This document shows positions 1 to 11,916 of a stretch of DNA of 64,000 bases, piece by piece. Source of the stretch: Clostridia bacterium. Its GTDB lineage: Bacteria; Bacillota; Clostridia; Oscillospirales; Acutalibacteraceae. The stretch's first letter is position 1. Every line of letters starts with the position of its first letter. The notes under the pieces were generated by a model. The model did no database searches, was not told the DNA's origin, and worked only from the letters and a program-made list of their open reading frames with translations. Location of the stretch: positions 6,021 to 70,020 of the forward strand of contig JAFQEE010000043.1 in the NCBI GenBank assembly GCA_017399175.1. Reading direction: 5' to 3'. Both the position numbers and the translations under genes were made by a program.

Positions 1-50
1 CAATTTACTATTATATAGAACATTCGTTCAATTGTCAAGAACTTTCCCGA

Positions 51-86
51 AAAAGAAAAGGTGGTGTCGGTTTTTGCCGACACCAC
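51..86 (-). terminator. Intrinsic terminator closing the minus-strand three-gene operon
   Basis: Perfect 10-bp stem GTGGTGTCGG/CCGACACCAC (61-70/77-86) with a 6-nt loop. On the minus strand it is followed by CTTTTCTTTT (60-51). Confidence 0.6.
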
Positions 87-308: not shown

Positions 309-1019
309 TTAAGTATTGTTTATAAAGCTAATATTTTGTGAAGAAATGTTTTCAAAAGTAACACTTACAGTATTTTGACCATTATTTATTTTTGCAAAAA
401 GTGATATAGTTTGTTTTAAGTTTATACCCATAGTGTTTTTATACTTTAAAGTAAATGTTTCTTTGTACTCTAATTTGTCGTCTTTCCAAAATTCTGATAA
501 TAATATTTCTTTTATATCCAAGATTATTTTAATATTATCATTTTGACAAGCATATTGAACAATAGAGTTTGAGCATTTGATAGATTTTAAATTTTCTAGC
601 GCTATATCTAGTGCGATGCCGCTACCAACATTCTTTAATACTAAATCCACACAACTACTGTCTGTACTATTAGTAAGTACATACTCCTTGCTCCACGTTT
701 TGTTTTCTATATTTTCTAAATATTCAGGGGTATCAAGCACTTTATGCATAACAAAAAAGGGGGCATTATTTTGTGCAGTAGAAAACTTCAATTGCTTTTC
801 GGTATCCTTTTTAGTAAAGTATATTGTTGCAATTAAAGAACCCACAGCTATTAGTCCACTTAAAATTGCACCATAAAAGGAAAGAACATCTGGTGCTCCC
901 CAAAGTGTTAAATATCCAGCGTTCATTTTATAGAATTCATTAATAATAACAGGTATCCCCAATACTAAAAAAACAGATCCCAATATTAGCAACAGTACTG
1001 TAATGATTTTTTTAGTCAT
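309..1019 (-). CDS. Membrane protein: two N-terminal TM helices plus a ~160-aa beta-rich C-terminal domain (candidate effector)
   Basis: 236-aa ORF. Hydrophobic segments IITVLLLILGSVFLVLGIPVII and VLSFYGAILSGLIAVGSLIATIYF. RBS GAGGAA lies 5 nt upstream. It is the third gene of a tight co-directional operon. Confidence 0.75.
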   Translation of the reverse strand: MTKKIITVLLLILGSVFLVLGIPVIINEFYKMNAGYLTLWGAPDVLSFYGAILSGLIAVGSLIATIYFTKKDTEKQLKFSTAQNNAPFFVMHKVLDTPEYLENIENKTWSKEYVLTNSTDSSCVDLVLKNVGSGIALDIALENLKSIKCSNSIVQYACQNDNIKIILDIKEILLSEFWKDDKLEYKETFTLKYKNTMGINLKQTISLFAKINNGQNTVSVTFENISSQNISFINNT

Positions 1020-1085
1020 ATAGTTTCCTCATCATTTAAATTGAAATAATTCATACTAATCGATATATAATCACAAATGAATATT

Positions 1086-2033
1086 CTATTTCAAATTATA
1101 CAGCACATACAAAAACCTTTGTTTATTTAATTTTGATATAATCGATGTTGAAACAAGAGGCAAATTTTCCATTAACCTCTCATTAGAAAAGCCAAAATTT
1201 TTTATTATTTTTTCACATATGGTCTTAGCATTAATTGATCCATCTCTATCTTTAATACAATATATCCTATCGATAAAAGCAAGCATAAATAACAAACGAT
1301 AGTTTTCTTGATGAGGTAAATTTCTAAAGACCTCTGGGATTTTTTCAAATTTTAATATAGATATTAATCCATCTAATTTTTCATCAATGATAGACTTATC
1401 AATACTCTTTACCATTGAAATTATTGGTGTAATATAATAACGACCAGCTCTCTCGTCCATTGCAGCTGTCATCAAATAATCTGAAATAACATACTCTAGT
1501 TTTGCCAATCCAAATTTATTGTATGAAACATCATATAATGATACAAATTCCATTTTTTCTTTAGTAGAACTGTCTCTTTTTTCAAAAATAGAAACGCAAA
1601 AATCATCACACATATTATTATATATCAAATCATCAACGACTTTTTGCGATAACGAAATACCTATGCCAGAAAATTGACACTGATTTAAATATATTCCAAT
1701 TGTTGCCGGATCCGTAAACTTCATTGAAAAGCCTTTCTTGTTTTCAAAAACAACTTTATCCGAATTTAACGAACCTTTATCAACATAAGCTGAAAAATAA
1801 CGATGGGTTTTCATAAGTGTATCTCTCAACAATCTAAAAAATTTAATTACATCCTCCAAAGAATCAATTTCAACATAGGCATTATCGCTGTATCCATAAA
1901 TCTTACAATTGCATCTTCGCGAAACTTGTTTCAATGTATCATTAAACTCATTTATAGACGCTGTATATTCTTGATTACTTGTTAACGCAGATGCTCTTAT
2001 TCCAACCATATCAAAAAAAGCAATATATGCCAT
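1086..2033 (-). CDS. Nucleotidyl-cyclase-like protein (class III cyclase-homology-like N-terminal ~150 aa plus a helical C-terminal half)
   Basis: 315-aa ORF. Motifs IAFFDMVGIR (Asp8), KIYGYSDNAYVE (Asp50) and IYLNQCQFSGIGISLSQKVVDDL resemble the beta1, beta2-3 and C-terminal motifs of class III cyclases. RBS GGAGGTG lies 6 nt upstream. Confidence 0.55.
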   Translation of the reverse strand: MAYIAFFDMVGIRASALTSNQEYTASINEFNDTLKQVSRRCNCKIYGYSDNAYVEIDSLEDVIKFFRLLRDTLMKTHRYFSAYVDKGSLNSDKVVFENKKGFSMKFTDPATIGIYLNQCQFSGIGISLSQKVVDDLIYNNMCDDFCVSIFEKRDSSTKEKMEFVSLYDVSYNKFGLAKLEYVISDYLMTAAMDERAGRYYITPIISMVKSIDKSIIDEKLDGLISILKFEKIPEVFRNLPHQENYRLLFMLAFIDRIYCIKDRDGSINAKTICEKIIKNFGFSNERLMENLPLVSTSIISKLNKQRFLYVLYNLK

Positions 2034-2063
2034 TCATAACACCTCCAAAAAAAAGAATTCAAA

Positions 2064-3239
2064 TCACAATTTAATAATGAACGGTACTATTTCAAAATCA
2101 AAGCCACTATCATAATATTTGTGAATCTCTCCCCAATATACTATATCCCATTTAGCTGGATATAATTCTCCTGGGAACAAGGCTTTTAACTGTGCAATCG
2201 AATGAGTGTCATCTGGGATATGCTTAATTAAAACTATTGCAAATCGCTCTTCTTTTCCAAAAGGCCTATCATCGATAAATTGAGGTGGGTTCAATATCTT
2301 TTTTTCAATTTCAACTTTTATTCTACTAGGACTGATTTGACCTTGATAAATGTTTCTGTCAAAAACTTTTTCAAGCGGATTTACAATTTCTTTTTCTTTA
2401 TAAAATACTCTACCATTTTCTTTAAAATACCACTCTTGGAATTTTTTCCACAAATTGCAATAGTCTTCAAAAAAAGCGAATACATCAGAATCAAAATTTT
2501 TTACTATATCATATGGTGCAACAGTAAAAATTGAAAGGAACGAAATATAAGGAGTGTCCGTCTTTAATTTTGAAGCAACATACTTTATCAAATTGCGTCC
2601 ATCTTTAGAAAATGTTTTGAGAAAACTTTCATCTTTTGAACACTCAAGAATAAACTGTACCTTATCTGCAGAGATTTTTTGCTTATCATCATGATGATAA
2701 GCTACATCACTCACTCCTAAATAATGACACATGCACGAGTCTACAAGAAGTGCTTCAGAATGAAGTATAGCGATATCTTCGGATAAACAAATTTGGTAAA
2801 ACGATGGTGGATTATTATGTGCCTCTGTCGGAACGAAATATGCCGAATCTTCCTTGAATTGTATAATCATATTATGCGTAGCTTCATTCATTTTTAGTTT
2901 TAAAATATCCTCTCGAGCTCCCGGATACAATAATATTCTAATGTTCTTTCGCCTAGAATCCGCAACATTATTAAAAATTAAATTGATTTTTTTATCTTCT
3001 GGAGAAAAAACAGTATTCTTTTTTACGAGAGCAGAGCATCTGTTATGTATATAATCGCTTAATATTTTATTCGATTCGTTTAACTTTGTACAAATTTGCA
3101 AAACATTAACAAACTGTTCGCTACCGCTTAAAATATTATTTAATCTGAAATAAGTCGCGTCGGCCATTTCATTAGCGTATTCGTCATCTCCAGGAAAAAC
3201 TGTAATGTTAAAAAGGATTCGTTCTTTTTCACCATTCAT
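2064..3239 (-). CDS. Hypothetical protein, first gene of the operon (no recognisable motif)
   Basis: 391-aa uninterrupted ORF in very AT-rich DNA. RBS AGAGGAG lies upstream. Its stop is 30 nt before the next start. Confidence 0.7.
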   Translation of the reverse strand: MNGEKERILFNITVFPGDDEYANEMADATYFRLNNILSGSEQFVNVLQICTKLNESNKILSDYIHNRCSALVKKNTVFSPEDKKINLIFNNVADSRRKNIRILLYPGAREDILKLKMNEATHNMIIQFKEDSAYFVPTEAHNNPPSFYQICLSEDIAILHSEALLVDSCMCHYLGVSDVAYHHDDKQKISADKVQFILECSKDESFLKTFSKDGRNLIKYVASKLKTDTPYISFLSIFTVAPYDIVKNFDSDVFAFFEDYCNLWKKFQEWYFKENGRVFYKEKEIVNPLEKVFDRNIYQGQISPSRIKVEIEKKILNPPQFIDDRPFGKEERFAIVLIKHIPDDTHSIAQLKALFPGELYPAKWDIVYWGEIHKYYDSGFDFEIVPFIIKL

Positions 3240-3464
3240 TTATATTGCTCCTCTTGTTATAAAATATAGTTTTAGAAATTGCTATTATTTACTGTTAACT
3301 TTTTTATTCGGGATAAATTTACATACAATGATAGAACTCAACAGATTATAAATTAAATTCGCAAGATCATTTAATACAAATATAGAATATATTAAAATCA
3401 TCATCTTTTTCAATTAGTAATGCAAAAACGCCGCACTTTTCGACAAAAACGCTTGTTTTTCGTC

Positions 3465-3960
3465 TCATTTTCCATTGCTATCAAACTCCACCCACGGCTT
3501 TTTAAATGCACCTATCTTCCTCATTGAAGTATAAACCTTATATTCATCTTCGCCACATTTGAGTGCAACAAAATCCTTGGTTACTTCTTCCATATAATGC
3601 AGGTTGACTATGTAACTGTAATGGGGTTGGGCGAAAGATTTTTCATCGAGAACTTCTTTCCAGTACTCCATTGAGTAGTGCGTTTCGTTTTTTTCGGTCT
3701 GTTATATACAGCACGGATTTTCTGTCCTCTATGGCAATGTATATAATTTCGTGTAGGCACACCCTGAAAATATCCTTGTTGCACATTGTCACAGATATAC
3801 CCTGGTAAATGCGATAACATTTGCTGTCACTTTCAGAAATGAAAAGGCCGTTACAACCGTGATATGTTTCTGGATAATGTGATAAACCATTGCTATTCAG
3901 GATTTCTACTATTTCCTCTTTTGTTTTGATGTGTCCGATTTCGTTTGTTTTCATAAGCAT
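3465..3960 (-). pseudogene. LytTR-domain DNA-binding protein, frameshifted at a homopolymer
   Basis: Two ORFs (3643-4068 and 3465-3671) carry LytTR-like halves (EIIYIAIEDRKSVLYITD and FAQPHYSYIVNLHYMEEV). Removing one base from the T7/A7 run at 3688-3694 joins them in frame. Confidence 0.7.
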
Positions 3961-4082
3961 TTTCCTTAAAATATAATCTGTCTTATATTTATAAAGTGCT
4001 GTATAAAGGAAAAAGTAACGCCATTTTTTCGAAAAAGAACGAACTTTGTCGAAATCAACAATTTGCACAACTATTCAAACAA

Positions 4083-4125
4083 AAACAACCGCCTTACTTG
4101 CGAAACACAAGTAAGGCGGTTGTTT
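4083..4125 (-). terminator. Strong intrinsic terminator (18-bp stem)
   Basis: AAACAACCGCCTTACTTG / CAAGTAAGGCGGTTGTTT with loop CGAAACA. On the minus strand it is followed by TTTGTTTG. Confidence 0.75.
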
Positions 4126-4220: not shown

Positions 4221-5783
4221 TTATTGTTCTTCTATATATTGACCGTCAGGTAAAGGTTTAAATAATATTGGAAGTGGAAGAACATCACTTGTTCTTTCCA
4301 GCAACATCAAAGCCCATTTCAAGTTGTACTCTTTCCCATATTCAGCATCAAACAAGTTCATCAAACTTGTTCCATATTCAATAGGATTTTCAGGTGTTAA
4401 GTTTAATATAAATCCAAATGGATATGCTCCTAAATCACAACACGTTGTTGCTTTAGGACCTGCATCTGATATACTAGCAAGGGTAGTTGGTCCAACCATT
4501 AATTGTCCGACATTTTTATGAGTTAAATAAATGCGCAAATCAAATAGTGATTTATCAATAGTATTGCTTTCTTTATTAAGTAAAAATTCATCAAAGCCTA
4601 ATCGCTTGACTTCTGAATAAGGCAACAAACTACAAAACATTGTGATGACTTGCTTCACAAAAGCCAAAGCAGGAAATTTTCTTGTGCTAAAGGCAAAAAT
4701 TTCACCATGTTTCAAGGGATCCATTTTATATAAAGCATAGCCAACTTCTTTCGCAACATCATTATATACTGTTGCATACCATGCACCGGTATTATTGTTA
4801 CATCTTTCACACACAGAGTATTTGCCCATACCTTGCTGTTGATTTTTATAATATGCCTTTTCACCTTTGTATCTTTTAATGGCATCTTCTCCGGTATATA
4901 CTTTAGTTCGATTATTATTAAGAGCATTTTCAGGTGGAATATGTTCAAATGATAATTTACAGTATGTACCGCATATTTGACATTCGCCATAATGATAAAC
5001 TTTTTCAAATTTTTTATCTGACAGTTCTGCAAAAATTATCGGTGTAGAAAGTTGACTTTCTAATCCAACTTTATCCCAAGTAGCTGTCCAAATAAGATAT
5101 GGCTCAAGTGGTAAAAAATCTTTTACTTTGATATGTGCACCGTCACGAACAAGCAAACCAGCTTTTGCCATTTTTTCAGCATCAAAATAAAGTCTGGCGC
5201 CCGTTTTATATTCTGCATCAATATCCATTACAATTTTGCTTGATTGTTTGGAATTAACAACGATTTCACCACTGACACCACCACCGAACATAACATAATC
5301 GCAAAAACAAACAGGATCACCAAGTAGTTTTCCAATAGGTTCTTTTTCAGAAGTAGCAAGTTTATTCCAACTTTTGAGCATTCCGTCTTTCTGTATTTGA
5401 TACCAATTTTCCATTGATGTGCTATGTACTAAAATTGGCATTTCATAATCACGTAGGAGTGTTTCATTATAACTGTGTCCAGTATAATGGTTCTGAGCTT
5501 GATTATATTCATCTTCTGTAATTGCAACAATACCGTTAAGATTACTTGCATTACAATATCCGATAAAATCTCCGACAGCCATTTTCCAATCATCGTGAAG
5601 CTGCTTGCTGATTTTTATGGTATAAGCACAACCATTCTTCGCACCAACAATCATTGCAGTATCTATATTAGATGAAAGAATCAATACTAACCAAGAGGAA
5701 TCATATTCACTTTTTGTTATCGGATTTATATTGTTTTCTATAAAATTATCTACTCTATAAATCAAGGTTAACACCCCTTCCAT
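4221..5783 (-). CDS. Fusion protein: N-terminal unknown region, KptA/Tpt1- or DarT-like (ART-fold-like) segment, and C-terminal Cys4 HNH-like nuclease module
   Basis: 520-aa ORF. PILVHSTSMENWYQIQKDGML and DAEKMAKAGLLVRDGAHIKVKDFLPLEPYL resemble KptA LYHGTxxxFLDxILxxGL and AKAMxxxG...ADNGVWLTDxVP. C268-x2-C271...E280-H281...C325-x2-C328-N329 is a bba-Me/HNH-like signature. Confidence 0.5.
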   Translation of the reverse strand: MEGVLTLIYRVDNFIENNINPITKSEYDSSWLVLILSSNIDTAMIVGAKNGCAYTIKISKQLHDDWKMAVGDFIGYCNASNLNGIVAITEDEYNQAQNHYTGHSYNETLLRDYEMPILVHSTSMENWYQIQKDGMLKSWNKLATSEKEPIGKLLGDPVCFCDYVMFGGGVSGEIVVNSKQSSKIVMDIDAEYKTGARLYFDAEKMAKAGLLVRDGAHIKVKDFLPLEPYLIWTATWDKVGLESQLSTPIIFAELSDKKFEKVYHYGECQICGTYCKLSFEHIPPENALNNNRTKVYTGEDAIKRYKGEKAYYKNQQQGMGKYSVCERCNNNTGAWYATVYNDVAKEVGYALYKMDPLKHGEIFAFSTRKFPALAFVKQVITMFCSLLPYSEVKRLGFDEFLLNKESNTIDKSLFDLRIYLTHKNVGQLMVGPTTLASISDAGPKATTCCDLGAYPFGFILNLTPENPIEYGTSLMNLFDAEYGKEYNLKWALMLLERTSDVLPLPILFKPLPDGQYIEEQ

Positions 5784-5883
5784 CGATAATATATTATTAT
5801 ATCATATTAAGTAAATTATTTCTACCTTTAATGCGCTTTTCAGGTCAAAACCTTGACAATGCGGTGTATGATTGATATAATAA

Positions 5884-5910: not shown

Positions 5911-6573
5911 ATGGCAAGGAATAAATACCCCGAAGAAACAATAACCCTAATTCTTGATACGGCTCAAAAGCTATTTCTTGAAAAAGGTTACGAACACACA
6001 ACGATTCAAGATATTATTGATAATTTAGGCGGTCTTACAAAGGGTGCTATTTATCATCATTTCACATCAAAAGAGGACATCCTGAACGCAGTTACTGCAA
6101 GACTTTTTCAGGAAAACTCTTTGGCTCGTAAGTGGAATAAGATAGCAGAAGACGCATCTCTCAACGGTGCAGAGAAGCTTAAAGCTATGCTTTACGAGTC
6201 CCTCGTTGACGAACAGGAACAGAAGTTCAGAAGTATGGGTATTCATCTGCAGAATATGCCTCATATGTTAAGTGACTTGCTTTTAAGGTCTGTCAATGAC
6301 ATTGCACCTAATGCAATCAAGCCTGTACTTGAAGAAGGCATAAAGGACGGCTCAATTAAAATACCGTTTGCAAAAGAGCTTGCAGAGGTTATCTCTTTAC
6401 TTGCCAATGTTTGGCTCAATCCTCTTGTATTCTCTATGAGCGATGAGGATATTGAGAAAAAGTGTCAGGTAATTTTAGGCATGATGGCTATGCTCGGTGT
6501 TGATGTTTCTGACATGTACCCGGCGGTTTATAATATGAACAAGCAAATCAACGAAATGGACAACAGAAAATGA
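5911..6573 (+). CDS. TetR/AcrR family transcriptional regulator
   Basis: N-terminal HTH signature TIQDIIDNLGGLTKGAIYHHFTSKEDIL. 220 aa. Confidence 0.9.
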   Translation: MARNKYPEETITLILDTAQKLFLEKGYEHTTIQDIIDNLGGLTKGAIYHHFTSKEDILNAVTARLFQENSLARKWNKIAEDASLNGAEKLKAMLYESLVDEQEQKFRSMGIHLQNMPHMLSDLLLRSVNDIAPNAIKPVLEEGIKDGSIKIPFAKELAEVISLLANVWLNPLVFSMSDEDIEKKCQVILGMMAMLGVDVSDMYPAVYNMNKQINEMDNRK

Positions 6574-11121: not shown

Positions 11122-11916
11122 TTGATAATAGATTTTCATACACACGCATTTCCCGATAAAATCGCAGAAAGAGCAATACAGTCACTTGTAGAAGGTTGTA
11201 ACGGAGAATATATGCCATGCAGTAATGGTACTGTGTCAGGACTTGTTGATAATATGGACAAGTTTGGCGTTGACATTTCGGTGGTGCAACCGGTTATCAC
11301 TAAACCGAGTCAGACGGTTACATTAAATAATTGGGCAAAAGAAATCACCTGTGACAGATTGATTTCCTTTGGCGGAATTCATCCCGAAACAGACGATTAT
11401 AAGCGTGATATTGACCTTGTATGTGAACTGGGATTACCGGGTATAAAACTTCATCCGGAATATCAGCAGTTTTATGTAGATGACCCTTATATGCTTAAAA
11501 TTTATGATTATGCTTTAAGCAAAGGACTTGTTATACTATTTCACGCAGGATATGACCCTGCTTATCCACCGCCAATTCACAGCAGTCCCAAGCAGTTTGC
11601 AGAAATATCAAAGCAGATGCAGGGAGGAATTATTATAGCCGCACATCTTGGTGGTCAGCGTCAATGGAATGAAGTTGAAGAGTATCTTGTGGGAACGGAA
11701 ATGTATATTGATACTTCAATGGGTATGAATTATTATCCCCATGACCAATTCTTGAGAATAGTAAAAAATCACGGTGCAGATAAAATTCTCTTTGGCTCTG
11801 ATTCTCCGTGGAGCAAGGCAGGGGAAGAAATTGAAATGCTTAACTCTCTTTCACTTTCACAGGAGGAAAAGGAGTTAATCCTTTATAAAAACGCAAAAAG
11901 AATATTGAAGATATAA
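11122..11916 (+). CDS. Amidohydrolase-family metal-dependent hydrolase (TIM barrel)
   Basis: N-terminal IIDFHTHAFP metal-binding motif. Internal FHAG and AAHLGG, C-terminal FGSDSPW. Confidence 0.8.
   Translation: MIIDFHTHAFPDKIAERAIQSLVEGCNGEYMPCSNGTVSGLVDNMDKFGVDISVVQPVITKPSQTVTLNNWAKEITCDRLISFGGIHPETDDYKRDIDLVCELGLPGIKLHPEYQQFYVDDPYMLKIYDYALSKGLVILFHAGYDPAYPPPIHSSPKQFAEISKQMQGGIIIAAHLGGQRQWNEVEEYLVGTEMYIDTSMGMNYYPHDQFLRIVKNHGADKILFGSDSPWSKAGEEIEMLNSLSLSQEEKELILYKNAKRILKI

What the first reader, a model, noticed from the sequence alone, without database searches (positions are those of the whole stretch)
309..3239. AT-rich three-gene operon: orphan 391-aa protein, nucleotidyl-cyclase-like protein and a 2TM/beta-rich membrane protein (candidate cyclic-nucleotide abortive-infection system)
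Three co-directional minus-strand genes are packed with 30- and 66-nt gaps. Each has its own Shine-Dalgarno sequence, and the set ends at a strong hairpin (61-86). The middle protein carries class III cyclase-like motifs. The last protein has two N-terminal TM helices and a beta-rich soluble domain. A signal-generating cyclase paired with a small membrane effector is the logic of Pycsar (PycC plus PycTM) and of CBASS with Cap15-type effectors. Three things differ here: the cyclase is not a CD-NTase, I see no Crp-type cNMP-binding motif in the membrane protein, and an extra large protein of unknown fold leads the operon. The operon sits in a 20-25% G+C patch next to a broken LytTR gene and a nuclease-like fusion gene, which is typical defence-island context. 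I do not recognise this combination as a named system.
Basis: partly seen in the sequence, partly recalled or inferred. Interest (0 to 1): 0.85.

Follow-up and report, generated by a model that had tools for sequence, protein, structure and literature searches.

The report
Orphan cyclase-fold module on mobile elements
Three unannotated genes carried on a mobile element in a gut Clostridia genome encode a hidden nucleotide-cyclase-fold enzyme, an always-linked partner protein with no recognisable fold, and a small membrane protein; together they look like an undescribed nucleotide-signalling phage-defence module, but no experiment supports this yet.

Summary
Three co-directional minus-strand genes sit at the stated coordinates: A (391 aa), B (315 aa) and C (236 aa). 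The Shine-Dalgarno sites, the 30- and 66-nt gaps and the terminator are as described. G+C is 29.5%, not 20-25%.

The cyclase guess holds at fold level. A confident AlphaFold model of B (pLDDT 94.5) matches only class III adenylyl/guanylyl cyclase domains in its top 50 PDB hits. The two predicted metal-binding aspartates, D8 and D50, lie at the canonical positions and are invariant across three phyla. No sequence method detects any of this.

The three-gene picture needs revising. A-B is the invariant core: adjacent in 15 of 15 close lineages and in 3 remote ones (Bacteroidota, Rhizobium, a faecal contig). C is a Clostridia-only accessory, present in 9 of 15 lineages and truncated by a stop codon in one of them.

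A has a confident model but no structural or sequence relative. An exhaustive search of 1.84 billion proteins found only 28 family representatives.

C has two TM helices and a probably cytoplasmic soluble domain. That layout parallels Cap15/OptE, but homology was tested and not detected.

The module is always cargo of mobile elements or defence islands.

Most likely it is an undescribed nucleotide-signalling conflict system. Function is inferred, not shown.

The parts
3386..3413 (-). Promoter-like site (TTGAAA-16-TATATT) upstream of gene A
   Evidence: Consensus scan, 10 of 12 matches. This is a consensus match only, not evidence of function.
2064..3239 (-). Gene A: 391-aa protein, obligate partner of B, with no detectable fold or sequence relative
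   Evidence: ORF. SD GAGGAG. Family of 52 clusters. Only 28 representatives among 1.84 billion proteins. AlphaFold pLDDT 91.7, pTM 0.91. No Foldseek hit better than E 0.2 in PDB or BFVD. No Pfam or PDB sequence hit. Residues conserved across phyla: D167, K193, S233, with H122, P230 and Q301 conserved in the next tier.
1086..2033 (-). Gene B: 315-aa protein with a class III cyclase-fold domain plus a helical C-terminal domain
   Evidence: ORF. SD GGAGGT. Family of 60 clusters. AlphaFold pLDDT 94.5, pTM 0.92.
1509..2033 (-). B residues 1-175: cyclase-homology-like palm domain. The D8 codon is at 2012..2010 and the D50 codon at 1886..1884.
   Evidence: Foldseek against PDB: all top 50 hits are class III adenylyl/guanylyl cyclase catalytic domains, best E 3.9e-6, probability 1.00, TM (normalised to target) 0.55-0.70. 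The secondary-structure order b1-a1-a2-b2-b3-a3-b4-b5-a4-b6-a5-b7-b8 matches the cyclase homology domain. D8 lies near the C-terminal end of b1 and D50 in the b2-b3 turn. D8, S49, D50, E55, R70, Q118, G123-I-G125 and D168 are invariant across three phyla.
1089..1508 (-). B residues 176-315: all-helical C-terminal domain carrying the invariant (A/x)GRYY(I/L)(T/S) motif (R198, Y199, Y200)
   Evidence: DSSP on the model. Invariance. No match to any known domain. Its role (regulation, dimerisation, or supplying an Arg to the active site) is inferred only.
309..1019 (-). Gene C: 236-aa membrane protein with 2 TM helices and a soluble domain; lineage-restricted accessory
   Evidence: ORF. SD GAGGAA. 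Homologues at 33-53% identity in 8 other lineages. Alignment A3.
816..1007 (-). C residues ~5-68: two TM helices joined by a highly conserved short loop (IPIIINELYKxNxGYLTLWGAxDVL)
   Evidence: Kyte-Doolittle segments at 1-30 and 44-70. Invariant residues P23, I26, N27, E28, Y30, K31, G35, Y36, T38, W40. The charge distribution favours an N-in/C-in topology.
312..815 (-). C residues 69-236: soluble, probably cytoplasmic domain with the motifs KKDTEKQ, PFF, LKNxGxGxA and YxNxxG
   Evidence: Alignment A3. No Pfam hit (including Cap15_CD_rec) and no PDB sequence hit. hhalign against VnOptE is not significant. The fold was not determined.
61..86 (-). Intrinsic-terminator-like hairpin (GTGGTGTCGG-loop-CCGACACCAC) followed by CTTTTCTTTT
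   Evidence: Terminator scan: 10 pairs, 7 of them G-C. Sequence.

Best explanation
The locus is horizontally mobile cargo. Its conserved core is the gene pair A-B. In one Clostridia clade, including this window, a third gene C has been added.

B is a very divergent enzyme of the class III nucleotidyl-cyclase (palm) fold. It keeps the two-aspartate metal site and most likely converts an NTP into a nucleotide-derived signal.

A is a 391-aa protein of unrecognisable fold that is always encoded next to B and is often translationally coupled to it. It is B's obligate partner: either the receptor/effector for B's product or the sensor that switches B on.

C is a two-pass membrane protein with a cytoplasmic soluble domain. 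Where present, it most likely acts as an added membrane-acting output, by architectural analogy with Cap15, OptE and PycTM.

The whole most likely functions in conflict between genetic elements, as anti-phage or anti-MGE defence of the abortive-infection type.

Shown here: gene structure, conservation, synteny, the fold of B, active-site conservation, and genomic context. Inferred: catalysis, the nature of the product, the roles of A and C, and the defence function.
For: 1. B's fold. The model is confident. All top 50 PDB structural neighbours are class III cyclase domains, at probability 1.0 and TM up to 0.70. The secondary-structure topology is identical to the cyclase homology domain.

2. 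B's active site. D8 and D50 occupy the positions of the two metal-binding Asp: near the end of b1 and in the b2-b3 hairpin. Together with E55, R70, Q118, GIG123-125, D168 and R198, they are invariant from Clostridia to Bacteroidota and Rhizobium at 23-27% overall identity. That pattern points to an enzyme, not a decayed fold.

3. Obligate A-B pairing. The genes are adjacent and co-directional in 15 of 15 close lineages. The same holds in three remote loci, where the upstream gene is a recognisable distant A homologue. Overlaps of 4 nt or short gaps are common. The two families are of similar size, 52 and 60 clusters.

4. C is accessory. It is present in 9 of 15 close lineages and 0 of 3 remote ones, carries a premature stop in L008, and is the fastest-evolving of the three.

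5. Context.
- Native contig: Mob_Pre relaxase, ParB and two large serine recombinases.
- Tyrosine integrase; relaxases and primase; T4SS coupling protein; tRNA-Arg island edge; IS elements.
- Defence neighbours: PtuA/GajA-like ATPase, TIR-SIR2 and PDC-S15; AAA_21 + DUF4435 and a methylase; methylase + GmrSD + HEPN; methylases and MazE; an AAA ATPase pair and an AbiE-like pair.

6. Foreign composition. The trio is 29.5% G+C against 37.6% in the window, and the pair is 35% against 55% in L006.
Against: - There is no biochemical or phage data.
- B lacks the canonical class III transition-state Asn/Arg pair on helix a4 (it has Y115 and Q118 there). It also lacks the substrate-specifying Lys four residues before the second Asp. 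This was read from the sequence and the predicted secondary structure, because no coordinates were available for superposition. Cyclase chemistry is therefore not assured.
- No sequence method links B to any cyclase.
- A offers no clue to any activity.
- C is not detectably related to Cap15/OptE and its fold was not determined.
- One locus (L011) sits inside a glycosyltransferase/surface-polysaccharide cluster rather than an obvious defence island.
- The defence context is anecdotal, roughly 18 lineages, and was not tested statistically.
- The family is very rare, so no enrichment statistics are possible with the data held.
Confidence: 0.45

Rival explanations
1. Inverse 'guard' signalling, like Panoptes or Panoptoo. 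B constitutively makes a nucleotide that keeps a toxic effector (C, or A) silent. Phage sponges or phosphodiesterases that deplete the nucleotide release the effector.
For: The architectural parallel is close: a small stand-alone palm-fold cyclase next to a 2TM protein whose soluble domain begins around residue 70, as in OptS/OptE. B has no obvious sensor domain apart from a helical C-terminal domain. The literature shows this logic has evolved repeatedly with different cyclase folds, namely mCpol and DAC.
Against: B and C are not detectable members of the mCpol or Cap15_CD_rec families, although the positive control worked. C is absent from 6 of 15 close lineages and from all remote ones. A would then have to be the held-in-check toxin, and nothing supports that. 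No CBASS genes were seen among the neighbours examined here, whereas Panoptes is significantly linked to CBASS.
Confidence: 0.12
2. B does not make a diffusible signal. It is a palm-fold nucleotidyltransferase or polymerase that acts on a macromolecule. For example, it might nucleotidylate protein A or a phage or host target, or synthesise a short oligonucleotide. A would be its substrate, scaffold or specificity subunit.
For: Only the universal two-Asp palm core is conserved. The cyclase-specific Asn/Arg and Lys residues are missing. The strict A-B linkage and translational coupling suggest a stable complex. A-B works as a unit without any recognisable effector in many loci.
Against: All top 50 structural neighbours are cyclases. 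No polymerase, GGDEF or Cas10 palm domain appears among them. No nucleic-acid-binding domain is detectable in A or B.
Confidence: 0.15
3. The module is not immunity. It serves the mobile element itself, for example as an addiction (toxin-antitoxin-like) pair, or in exclusion or regulation of transfer. The defence genes nearby merely share the same cargo hotspots.
For: The module always sits on or beside integrative or mobilisable elements. The tight two-gene core with overlapping reading frames resembles a TA organisation. One locus lies in a polysaccharide cluster.
Against: At 391 and 315 aa, both proteins are large for a TA pair, and neither resembles a known toxin or antitoxin. Repeated juxtaposition with bona fide defence genes on several unrelated backbones is the classic guilt-by-association signal for defence.
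Confidence: 0.15
4. It is simply a very divergent Pycsar system, with PycC = B and PycTM = C, and A is a passenger gene.
For: B has a class III cyclase fold and sits next to a TM protein. Pycsar is defined as a class III-type pyrimidine cyclase plus a TM or TIR receptor. New, overlooked Pycsar clades are still being found.
Against: No PADLOC model matches any of the three proteins at E <= 1, and no Pfam Guanylate_cyc hit was found for any of 42 B members. No cNMP-binding domain is detectable in any of 16 C members. A, not C, is the invariant partner. The cyclase-specific residues beyond the two Asp are not conserved.
Confidence: 0.05

Closest known systems
Pycsar (PycC class III-type pyrimidine cyclase + PycTM/PycTIR; Tal et al. 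2021, as summarised in PMC11224242)
   Same: Both have a stand-alone class III-fold cyclase with two metal-binding Asp next to a small TM protein. Both sit in defence-island or MGE contexts. A nucleotide signal with a membrane output is a plausible logic for both.
   Different: B has no sequence-detectable cyclase domain and lacks the conserved Asn/Arg/Lys catalytic and specificity residues. B has an extra 140-aa helical domain. C has no detectable cNMP-binding domain. A third protein (A), absent from Pycsar, is the obligate partner, while the TM protein is dispensable.
Panoptes (OptS mCpol + OptE S-2TMbeta; PMC12657218, PMC12657230) and the CBASS effector Cap15
   Same: Both pair a minimal palm-fold nucleotide synthase with a two-pass TM protein that has a soluble C-terminal domain starting around residue 70. 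Overall sizes are similar (OptE 201 aa, C 236 aa).
   Different: B is structurally nearest to class III cyclases, not to Cas10/mCpol. It is 315 aa against about 120 aa for OptS. No C or B family member hits Cap15_CD_rec or mCpol, although VnOptE and VnOptS do. hhalign is not significant. No CBASS linkage was seen. A has no counterpart.
Canonical class III adenylyl/guanylyl cyclases (Ma1120, Rv1900c, CyaC, Cya2, sGC, tmAC)
   Same: Fold and secondary-structure topology match over about 175 residues. The two Asp lie in equivalent positions to D396 and D440 of AC5 C1. There is a b4-b5 'arm' hairpin.
   Different: Identity is only 10-15%. No profile-level similarity was found. The a4 Asn/Arg pair and the purine-specifying Lys/Asp or Glu/Cys are missing. 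B is fused to an unknown helical domain and locked to partner A. Its context is mobile elements, not cellular signalling.
Type II/III CBASS (CD-NTase + effector + accessory Cap genes)
   Same: Both are multi-gene operons in which a nucleotide synthase is accompanied by an effector and additional conserved genes. TM effectors are common in CBASS.
   Different: The synthase here is not a CD-NTase (pol-beta fold). The accessory or partner gene A is unrelated to Cap2, Cap3 or Cap6-8. PADLOC finds no CBASS component.

Membership tests
Class III nucleotidyl cyclase (Pfam Guanylate_cyc PF00211 superfamily) | Cyclase-homology-domain fold (b-a-b-b-a-b palm core with the b4-b5 arm) | tested here: met
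   AlphaFold model with pLDDT 94.5. All top 50 Foldseek PDB hits are class III cyclases, best E 3.9e-6, probability 1.0, TM (normalised to target) 0.55-0.70.
Class III nucleotidyl cyclase (Pfam Guanylate_cyc PF00211 superfamily) | Two metal-binding Asp, one on b1 and one in the b2-b3 hairpin | tested here: met
   D8 lies in strand 3-10 and D50 lies between strands 43-48 and 51-56. Both are invariant across three phyla. Positions were assigned by topology, not by coordinate superposition.
Class III nucleotidyl cyclase (Pfam Guanylate_cyc PF00211 superfamily) | Transition-state Asn and Arg on helix a4, and a substrate-specifying Lys (or Glu) on b2 | tested here: not met
   Helix 109-120 carries conserved Y115 and Q118 but no N...R pair. 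The position four residues before D50 is Y46. K44 is not conserved. This is a sequence/topology reading only.
Class III nucleotidyl cyclase (Pfam Guanylate_cyc PF00211 superfamily) | Sequence-profile match to PF00211 | tested here: not met
   No hit at E <= 1 for the window protein or for any of 42 family members. The PDB profile search found nothing. hhalign against an AC C1/C2 mini-profile gave no signal.
Class III nucleotidyl cyclase (Pfam Guanylate_cyc PF00211 superfamily) | NTP-to-cyclic-nucleotide catalysis as a dimer | not testable with these tools
   Requires biochemistry or a structure of a complex.
Pycsar | PycC cyclase recognised by defence-system or cyclase HMMs | tested here: not met
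   PADLOC-DB v2.0.0 gave no hit at E <= 1 for A, B or C. Pfam gave none.
Pycsar | Effector with a cyclic-nucleotide-binding (CNB) domain fused to TM or TIR | tested here: not met
   No cNMP-binding or any other Pfam domain was found in 16 C members at E <= 1. C's fold was not determined, so a cryptic CNB-like fold cannot be excluded.
Pycsar | Production of cCMP or cUMP | not testable with these tools
   Needs LC-MS.
Panoptes (type I) | Synthase with an mCpol domain (PF18182) | tested here: not met
   VnOptS hits mCpol at E 7e-26, while none of 42 B members does. hhalign of B against VnOptS gives probability 1%. No Cas10 or mCpol structure appears among the top 50 fold hits.
Panoptes (type I) / Cap15 S-2TMbeta effectors | Two-pass TM element fused to a Cap15_CD_rec beta-barrel (PF18153) | tested here: inconclusive
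   The 2TM element plus a soluble domain starting around residue 69 is present. There is no PF18153 hit in 16 members, whereas VnOptE scores E 2e-19. hhalign gives probability 0.7%, covering TM2 only.
Panoptes (type I) | Genomic linkage to CBASS / SMODS genes | tested here: not met
   No CD-NTase/SMODS Pfam family appears among the called neighbours of the loci examined. The sample is small.
CBASS | CD-NTase (SMODS, pol-beta fold) synthase | tested here: not met
   B has a class III palm fold. PADLOC and Pfam found no CBASS component.
Defence system in general (guilt by association) | Recurrent location beside known defence genes, on varied backbones, with atypical composition | tested here: met
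   Defence neighbours were found in L001, L004, L005, L007, L009, L026 and L027. MGE hallmarks appear in most loci. There is a G+C deficit. The assessment is qualitative only, with no enrichment statistic. L011 is an exception.

The most novel reading that the evidence does not exclude
A-B defines a previously unrecognised two-component conflict system found in three phyla. In it, a cryptic class III-fold nucleotide cyclase works with a protein of entirely new fold. That protein could be a new kind of second-messenger receptor/effector or a new kind of infection sensor. In Clostridia, a new family of 2TM membrane effectors has been recruited independently of the Cap15/OptE lineage. If true, the module may involve a new signal molecule, a new effector chemistry, or both.
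Probability: 0.35. Interest if true: 0.8.

Novelty: new variant of a known kind. Interest (0 to 1): 0.66.

Why it matters
Nucleotide second-messenger immunity (CBASS, Pycsar, Thoeris, type III CRISPR, Panoptes) is one of the most productive areas of phage-defence research and has direct evolutionary links to animal innate immunity.

This module would add a cyclase lineage that every sequence-based detector tried here misses: Pfam, NCBIfam, PADLOC and PHROGs. That shows structure-based mining can still reveal hidden signalling enzymes.

The obligate partner A has a confidently predicted fold with no relative in the PDB or in viral structure sets. Defining its activity could reveal a new effector or sensor principle.

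The natural A-B versus A-B-C variation gives a ready-made experiment on how membrane effectors are bolted onto an existing signalling core.

The system lives on mobile elements of human- and animal-gut Clostridia. That makes it relevant to phage and plasmid dynamics in the microbiome.

Tried and rejected
1. Sequence-profile annotation of A, B, C and their neighbours with Pfam, PADLOC, NCBIfam and PHROGs. This included scanning every family member individually (42 B, 41 A, 16 C). Nothing significant was found.

2. Profile searches of all three families against PDB sequences gave nothing.

3. hhalign of B's N-terminal domain against a mini-profile of genuine AC5/AC8 C1 and C2 domains gave no signal. 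The AC sequence was verified against 1AZS_A. Catalytic residues therefore had to be mapped by topology.

4. Foldseek of A against PDB and BFVD gave no hit better than E 0.2. Scattered caspase and Rossmann-like hits at E 1-3 were considered and rejected as non-specific. I also read A's motifs by eye for PD-(D/E)xK, HEPN (Rx4-6H), HD and caspase His/Cys dyads. None fits the predicted secondary structure, and none survives the deep alignment.

5. P0141 (Metallophos fused to A's C-terminus) was considered as a clue to a phosphoesterase link. I rejected it as a probable assembly or recombination chimera: a signal-peptide-bearing secreted protein is joined abruptly to a near-identical A C-terminus.

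6. The viral-contig scan for B found no relatives. The single 'Bacteriophage sp.' GenBank hit is an unverified 6-kb faecal scaffold with no phage genes seen.

7. A crude hydrophobic-moment and Chou-Fasman analysis to test 'beta-rich' for C was uninformative.

8. Literature searches for a described equivalent found none. These searches cannot prove absence.

Full report
OBSERVATION

Reading the minus strand confirms the finer claims:
- The gaps are 30 and 66 nt.
- Each start codon is preceded by a Shine-Dalgarno-like site: GAGGAG, GGAGGT and GAGGAA.
- A G+C-rich hairpin at 86..61 is followed by a T-run, and the terminator scan also finds it.
- A promoter-like site lies at 3413..3386.

One detail is off. 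The trio is 29.5% G+C, not 20-25%, against 37.6% for the rest of the window. Only isolated 300-nt windows reach 22.7%. The whole left 6 kb of the window has depressed G+C.

THE GENES ARE REAL BUT ORPHANS

Pfam, PADLOC and NCBIfam give nothing significant for A, B or C. PHROGs also gives nothing.

Each protein nevertheless has a family of full-length homologues in metagenomes and MAGs:
- B: 60 clusters at 36-100% identity.
- A: 52 clusters.
- C: 13 clusters.

NCBI labels the identical B protein 'hypothetical protein', from a Clostridia MAG. Scanning every aligned family member separately against Pfam produced no recurrent hit. Profile searches against all PDB sequences were empty.

B IS A CRYPTIC CLASS III CYCLASE-FOLD PROTEIN

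An AlphaFold2 model built on the 42-sequence alignment is very confident, with pLDDT 94.5 and pTM 0.92.

Foldseek against the PDB returns 106 hits at E <= 0.001. All of the top 50 are catalytic domains of class III adenylyl or guanylyl cyclases: Ma1120, Rv1900c, CyaC, Cya2, soluble guanylate cyclase and membrane ACs. Probability is 1.00 and TM normalised to the target is 0.55-0.70 at 10-15% identity. No GGDEF, Cas10/mCpol or polymerase palm domain appears among them.

The model's secondary-structure order is E3-10, H12-18, H20-38, E43-48, E51-56, H59-74, E79-86, E91-95, E102-106, H109-120, E125-128, H130-138, E145-151, E163-169. This is the b1-a1-a2-b2-b3-a3-b4-b5-a4-b6-a5-b7-b8 order of the cyclase homology domain, according to established knowledge of tmAC and bacterial class III structures.

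D8 lies near the C-terminal end of b1 and D50 in the b2-b3 turn. These are the positions of the two metal-binding aspartates, D396 and D440 in AC5 C1. I verified that AC5 C1 sequence against 1AZS_A.

These residues, with S49, Y53, E55, R70, G87, Q118, G123-I124-G125, D168 and R198-Y199-Y200, are invariant even in relatives at 23-27% identity from Bacteroidota, Rhizobium and a faecal contig. That pattern indicates a preserved active site.

There are caveats:
- I could not superpose coordinates, so residue equivalence rests on topology.
- hhalign against a genuine AC mini-profile gives no signal.
- The canonical a4 Asn/Arg pair and the b2 specificity Lys are not present. Y115, Q118 and Y46 occupy those places.
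- Residues 176-315 form an all-helical domain of unknown affinity that carries the invariant GRYY motif.

A HAS NO RECOGNISABLE RELATIVES

The model of A is also confident, with pLDDT 91.7 and pTM 0.91. Even so, the best Foldseek hits are E 0.22 in the PDB and E 0.23 in BFVD, with TM below 0.35.

An exhaustive HMMER profile search of 1.84 billion representative proteins found only 28 family members and no link to another family. Deep alignments reduce the universally conserved residues to D167, K193 and S233, with H122, P230 and Q301 in the next tier.

I found no convincing nuclease, HEPN, HD or caspase signature. One apparent Metallophos-A fusion (P0141) looks like a chimera.

C IS A TWO-PASS MEMBRANE PROTEIN

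Two hydrophobic segments lie at about residues 5-27 and 44-68. They flank an unusually conserved short loop, IPIIINELYKxNxGYLTLWGAxDVL.

The charge distribution favours an N-in/C-in topology, which would put the 165-residue soluble domain in the cytoplasm.

I tested homology directly. The VnOptE and VnOptS sequences from that paper's supplement are recognised by Pfam as Cap15_CD_rec (E 2e-19) and mCpol (E 7e-26). None of the 16 C or 42 B family members hits those models, and hhalign is non-significant.

C is therefore architecturally analogous to Cap15/OptE but not a detectable member of the family.

SYNTENY: THE CORE IS A-B, NOT B-C

I mapped A, B and C by tblastn on 27 fetched loci and collapsed near-identical loci into lineages.
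- A and B are adjacent and co-directional in 15 of 15 close lineages.
- C follows B in 9 of the 15: the window (L018-21), L024, L001/2/3/16, L004, L005, L008, L015, L017 and L026.
- In L008 the C reading frame is cut by a stop after 118 codons.
- C is absent from L006, L009/10, L011, L012-14, L025 and L027.

The C-less loci differ in what follows B:
- L012-14: the pair is intact and was recovered from three independent samples, with a convergent gene about 80 nt downstream.
- L009: an unrelated 189-aa single-TM protein follows after a 350-nt gap.
- L006: the pair abuts a tRNA-Arg gene and a duplicated tRNA 3' end.

Three remote loci also have an A-like gene immediately upstream of the B-like gene and no C. 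These are a Chitinophagales MAG (L007), the 1.25-Mb plasmid of Rhizobium leguminosarum Vaf10 (L022) and a faecal scaffold (L023). In L007 and L022 the two genes overlap by 4 nt. The A-like proteins carry the PY(I/V)SF and (G/N)QISP motifs.

Gene overlaps of 4 or 11 nt are common, which suggests translational coupling.

C evolves fastest, at 33-53% identity, against 33-68% for A and 36-68% for B.

The 'extra' 391-aa protein is the obligate partner, and the membrane protein is the optional one.

CONTEXT

In the native 105-kb contig, the trio is followed by a Mob_Pre relaxase, ParB, two large serine recombinases and a relaxase/MobC pair. It is preceded by the LytTR fragment, the 520-aa orphan, TetR, an MFS transporter, TraX and TnpV. 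It is therefore cargo of an integrative mobilisable element.

Elsewhere the module lies beside mobile-element genes:
- a tyrosine integrase;
- relaxases and a Toprim primase;
- a T4SS coupling protein;
- a serine recombinase;
- IS elements.

Known or candidate defence genes recur next to it:
- a PtuA/GajA-like ATPase, a D12 methylase, a ThsA-like TIR-SIR2 protein and PDC-S15 in L009;
- PDC-S60 in L001;
- two methylases and MazE in L004;
- an AAA_15/21-type ATPase pair and an AbiE-like pair in L005;
- a methylase, GmrSD and HEPN in L026;
- an HATPase/methylase pair and AAA_21 + DUF4435 (PARIS-like) in L027.

Composition is foreign: the pair is 35% G+C inside a 55% G+C locus in L006.

One exception is L011, which lies inside a glycosyltransferase cluster.

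The family is rare. The genome scan of 185,579 species found 3 loci, the metagenome scan found 6, and the viral-contig scan found none. Those scans are pattern-seeded and so conservative.

MECHANISM

The best-supported reading (confidence about 0.45) has four parts:
- B is an active palm-fold nucleotidyl cyclase or transferase that generates a nucleotide-derived signal.
- A is its obligate partner, acting either as receptor/effector or as the sensor that controls B.
- C is an add-on membrane-acting output in one Clostridia clade.
- The module serves inter-element conflict, most likely anti-phage defence.

What is shown: the fold, the conservation, the linkage and the context. What is inferred: catalysis, the product, the roles of A and C, and the phenotype.

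The rival explanations are:
- Panoptes-like inverse guarding (0.12);
- a non-signalling transferase or polymerase acting on A or another macromolecule (0.15);
- an MGE-maintenance function (0.15);
- plain membership of Pycsar (0.05).

COMPARISON AND NOVELTY

The module works most like Pycsar, Panoptes and Cap15-type CBASS: a small nucleotide synthase with a 2TM effector. It fails the membership tests for all three that could be run:
- no PF00211, mCpol or SMODS domain;
- no CNB or Cap15_CD_rec domain;
- no PADLOC hit.

It also has a defining component, A, that none of those systems has. NCBIfam (June 2026), Pfam (2025) and PADLOC (2023) have no model for any of the three proteins. Literature searches found no description, although absence from the searchable library is not proof.

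I classify it as a new variant of a known kind, namely nucleotide-signalling conflict systems. There is an appreciable chance (about 0.35) that A embodies a new effector or sensor principle.

Interest is 0.66. The finding is computationally solid and surprising in its details, but it is functionally untested and the family is rare.

Noticed in passing
window 4221-5783 (minus strand): A 520-aa orphan gene lies just upstream of the trio in the same low-G+C patch, with its own promoter-like site (5824..5796) and a strong 20-bp-stem terminator (4125..4083). It has only sub-threshold Tpt1/KptA RNA 2'-phosphotransferase similarity (E 0.09 Pfam, 0.037 NCBIfam, residues ~101-190) and a weak match to phrog_21495 (E 1.5e-4, residues 263-399). 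The C-terminal half has Cys-rich CxxC motifs. It travels with the trio in L018 and L019 and may be another cargo or defence gene.
   Followed up: partly
window 3465-4068 (minus strand): A LytTR DNA-binding gene is broken into at least two overlapping ORFs of 141 aa and 68 aa. The C-terminal fragment matches LytTR at E 1e-6. It is a pseudogene remnant between the 520-aa gene and the trio, and is also called as a 68-aa fragment in the identical contigs L018-L020.
   Followed up: partly
L006 11200-11460: Directly downstream of the C-less A-B pair lies a tRNA-Arg(ACG) gene (11381-11457, minus strand). The sequence 'tggcacgccgtaagggattcgaacccctg', which begins in the spacer just downstream of the gene and continues into its 3' end, occurs a second time about 170 nt away. 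This looks like an att-type direct repeat from integration at the tRNA. The pair is 35% G+C in a 55% G+C locus.
   Followed up: partly
L009 9298-9867 and L010 4121-4690: In the P0055 lineage, C is replaced by an unrelated 189-aa protein with one N-terminal TM helix and a helical soluble domain, after a ~350-nt gap. It could be an alternative membrane effector for the A-B core. It has no Pfam, PADLOC or PHROG hit.
   Followed up: partly
P0141 (metagenomic protein, 423 aa): A signal-peptide-bearing Metallophos (PF00149, E 4e-6) protein is fused in frame to the last ~110 residues of an A-family protein (E 8e-39). This is probably an assembly chimera or an insertion junction rather than a genuine domain fusion.
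   Followed up: partly
L001 10015-12369 (also L002, L003): A 784-aa gene with no Pfam or PADLOC hit follows the trio, co-directionally, in the integrase-associated lineage. It may be a further orphan cargo gene of that island.
   Followed up: no
L022 11318-14458 (Rhizobium leguminosarum plasmid NZ_CP016287): A 1046-aa protein with an N-terminal radical-SAM-like CxxxCxxC motif lies about 2.3 kb downstream of the remote A-B pair, beyond an IS transposase. Whether it is related to the pair is unknown.
   Followed up: no
window 10-38 (minus strand) and 5853-5881 (plus strand): There are two perfect 12/12 sigma-70 consensus promoters (TTGACA-17-TATAAT). One lies just beyond the trio's terminator and reads out of the window's left edge. 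The other lies in front of the TetR gene at 5911.
   Followed up: no
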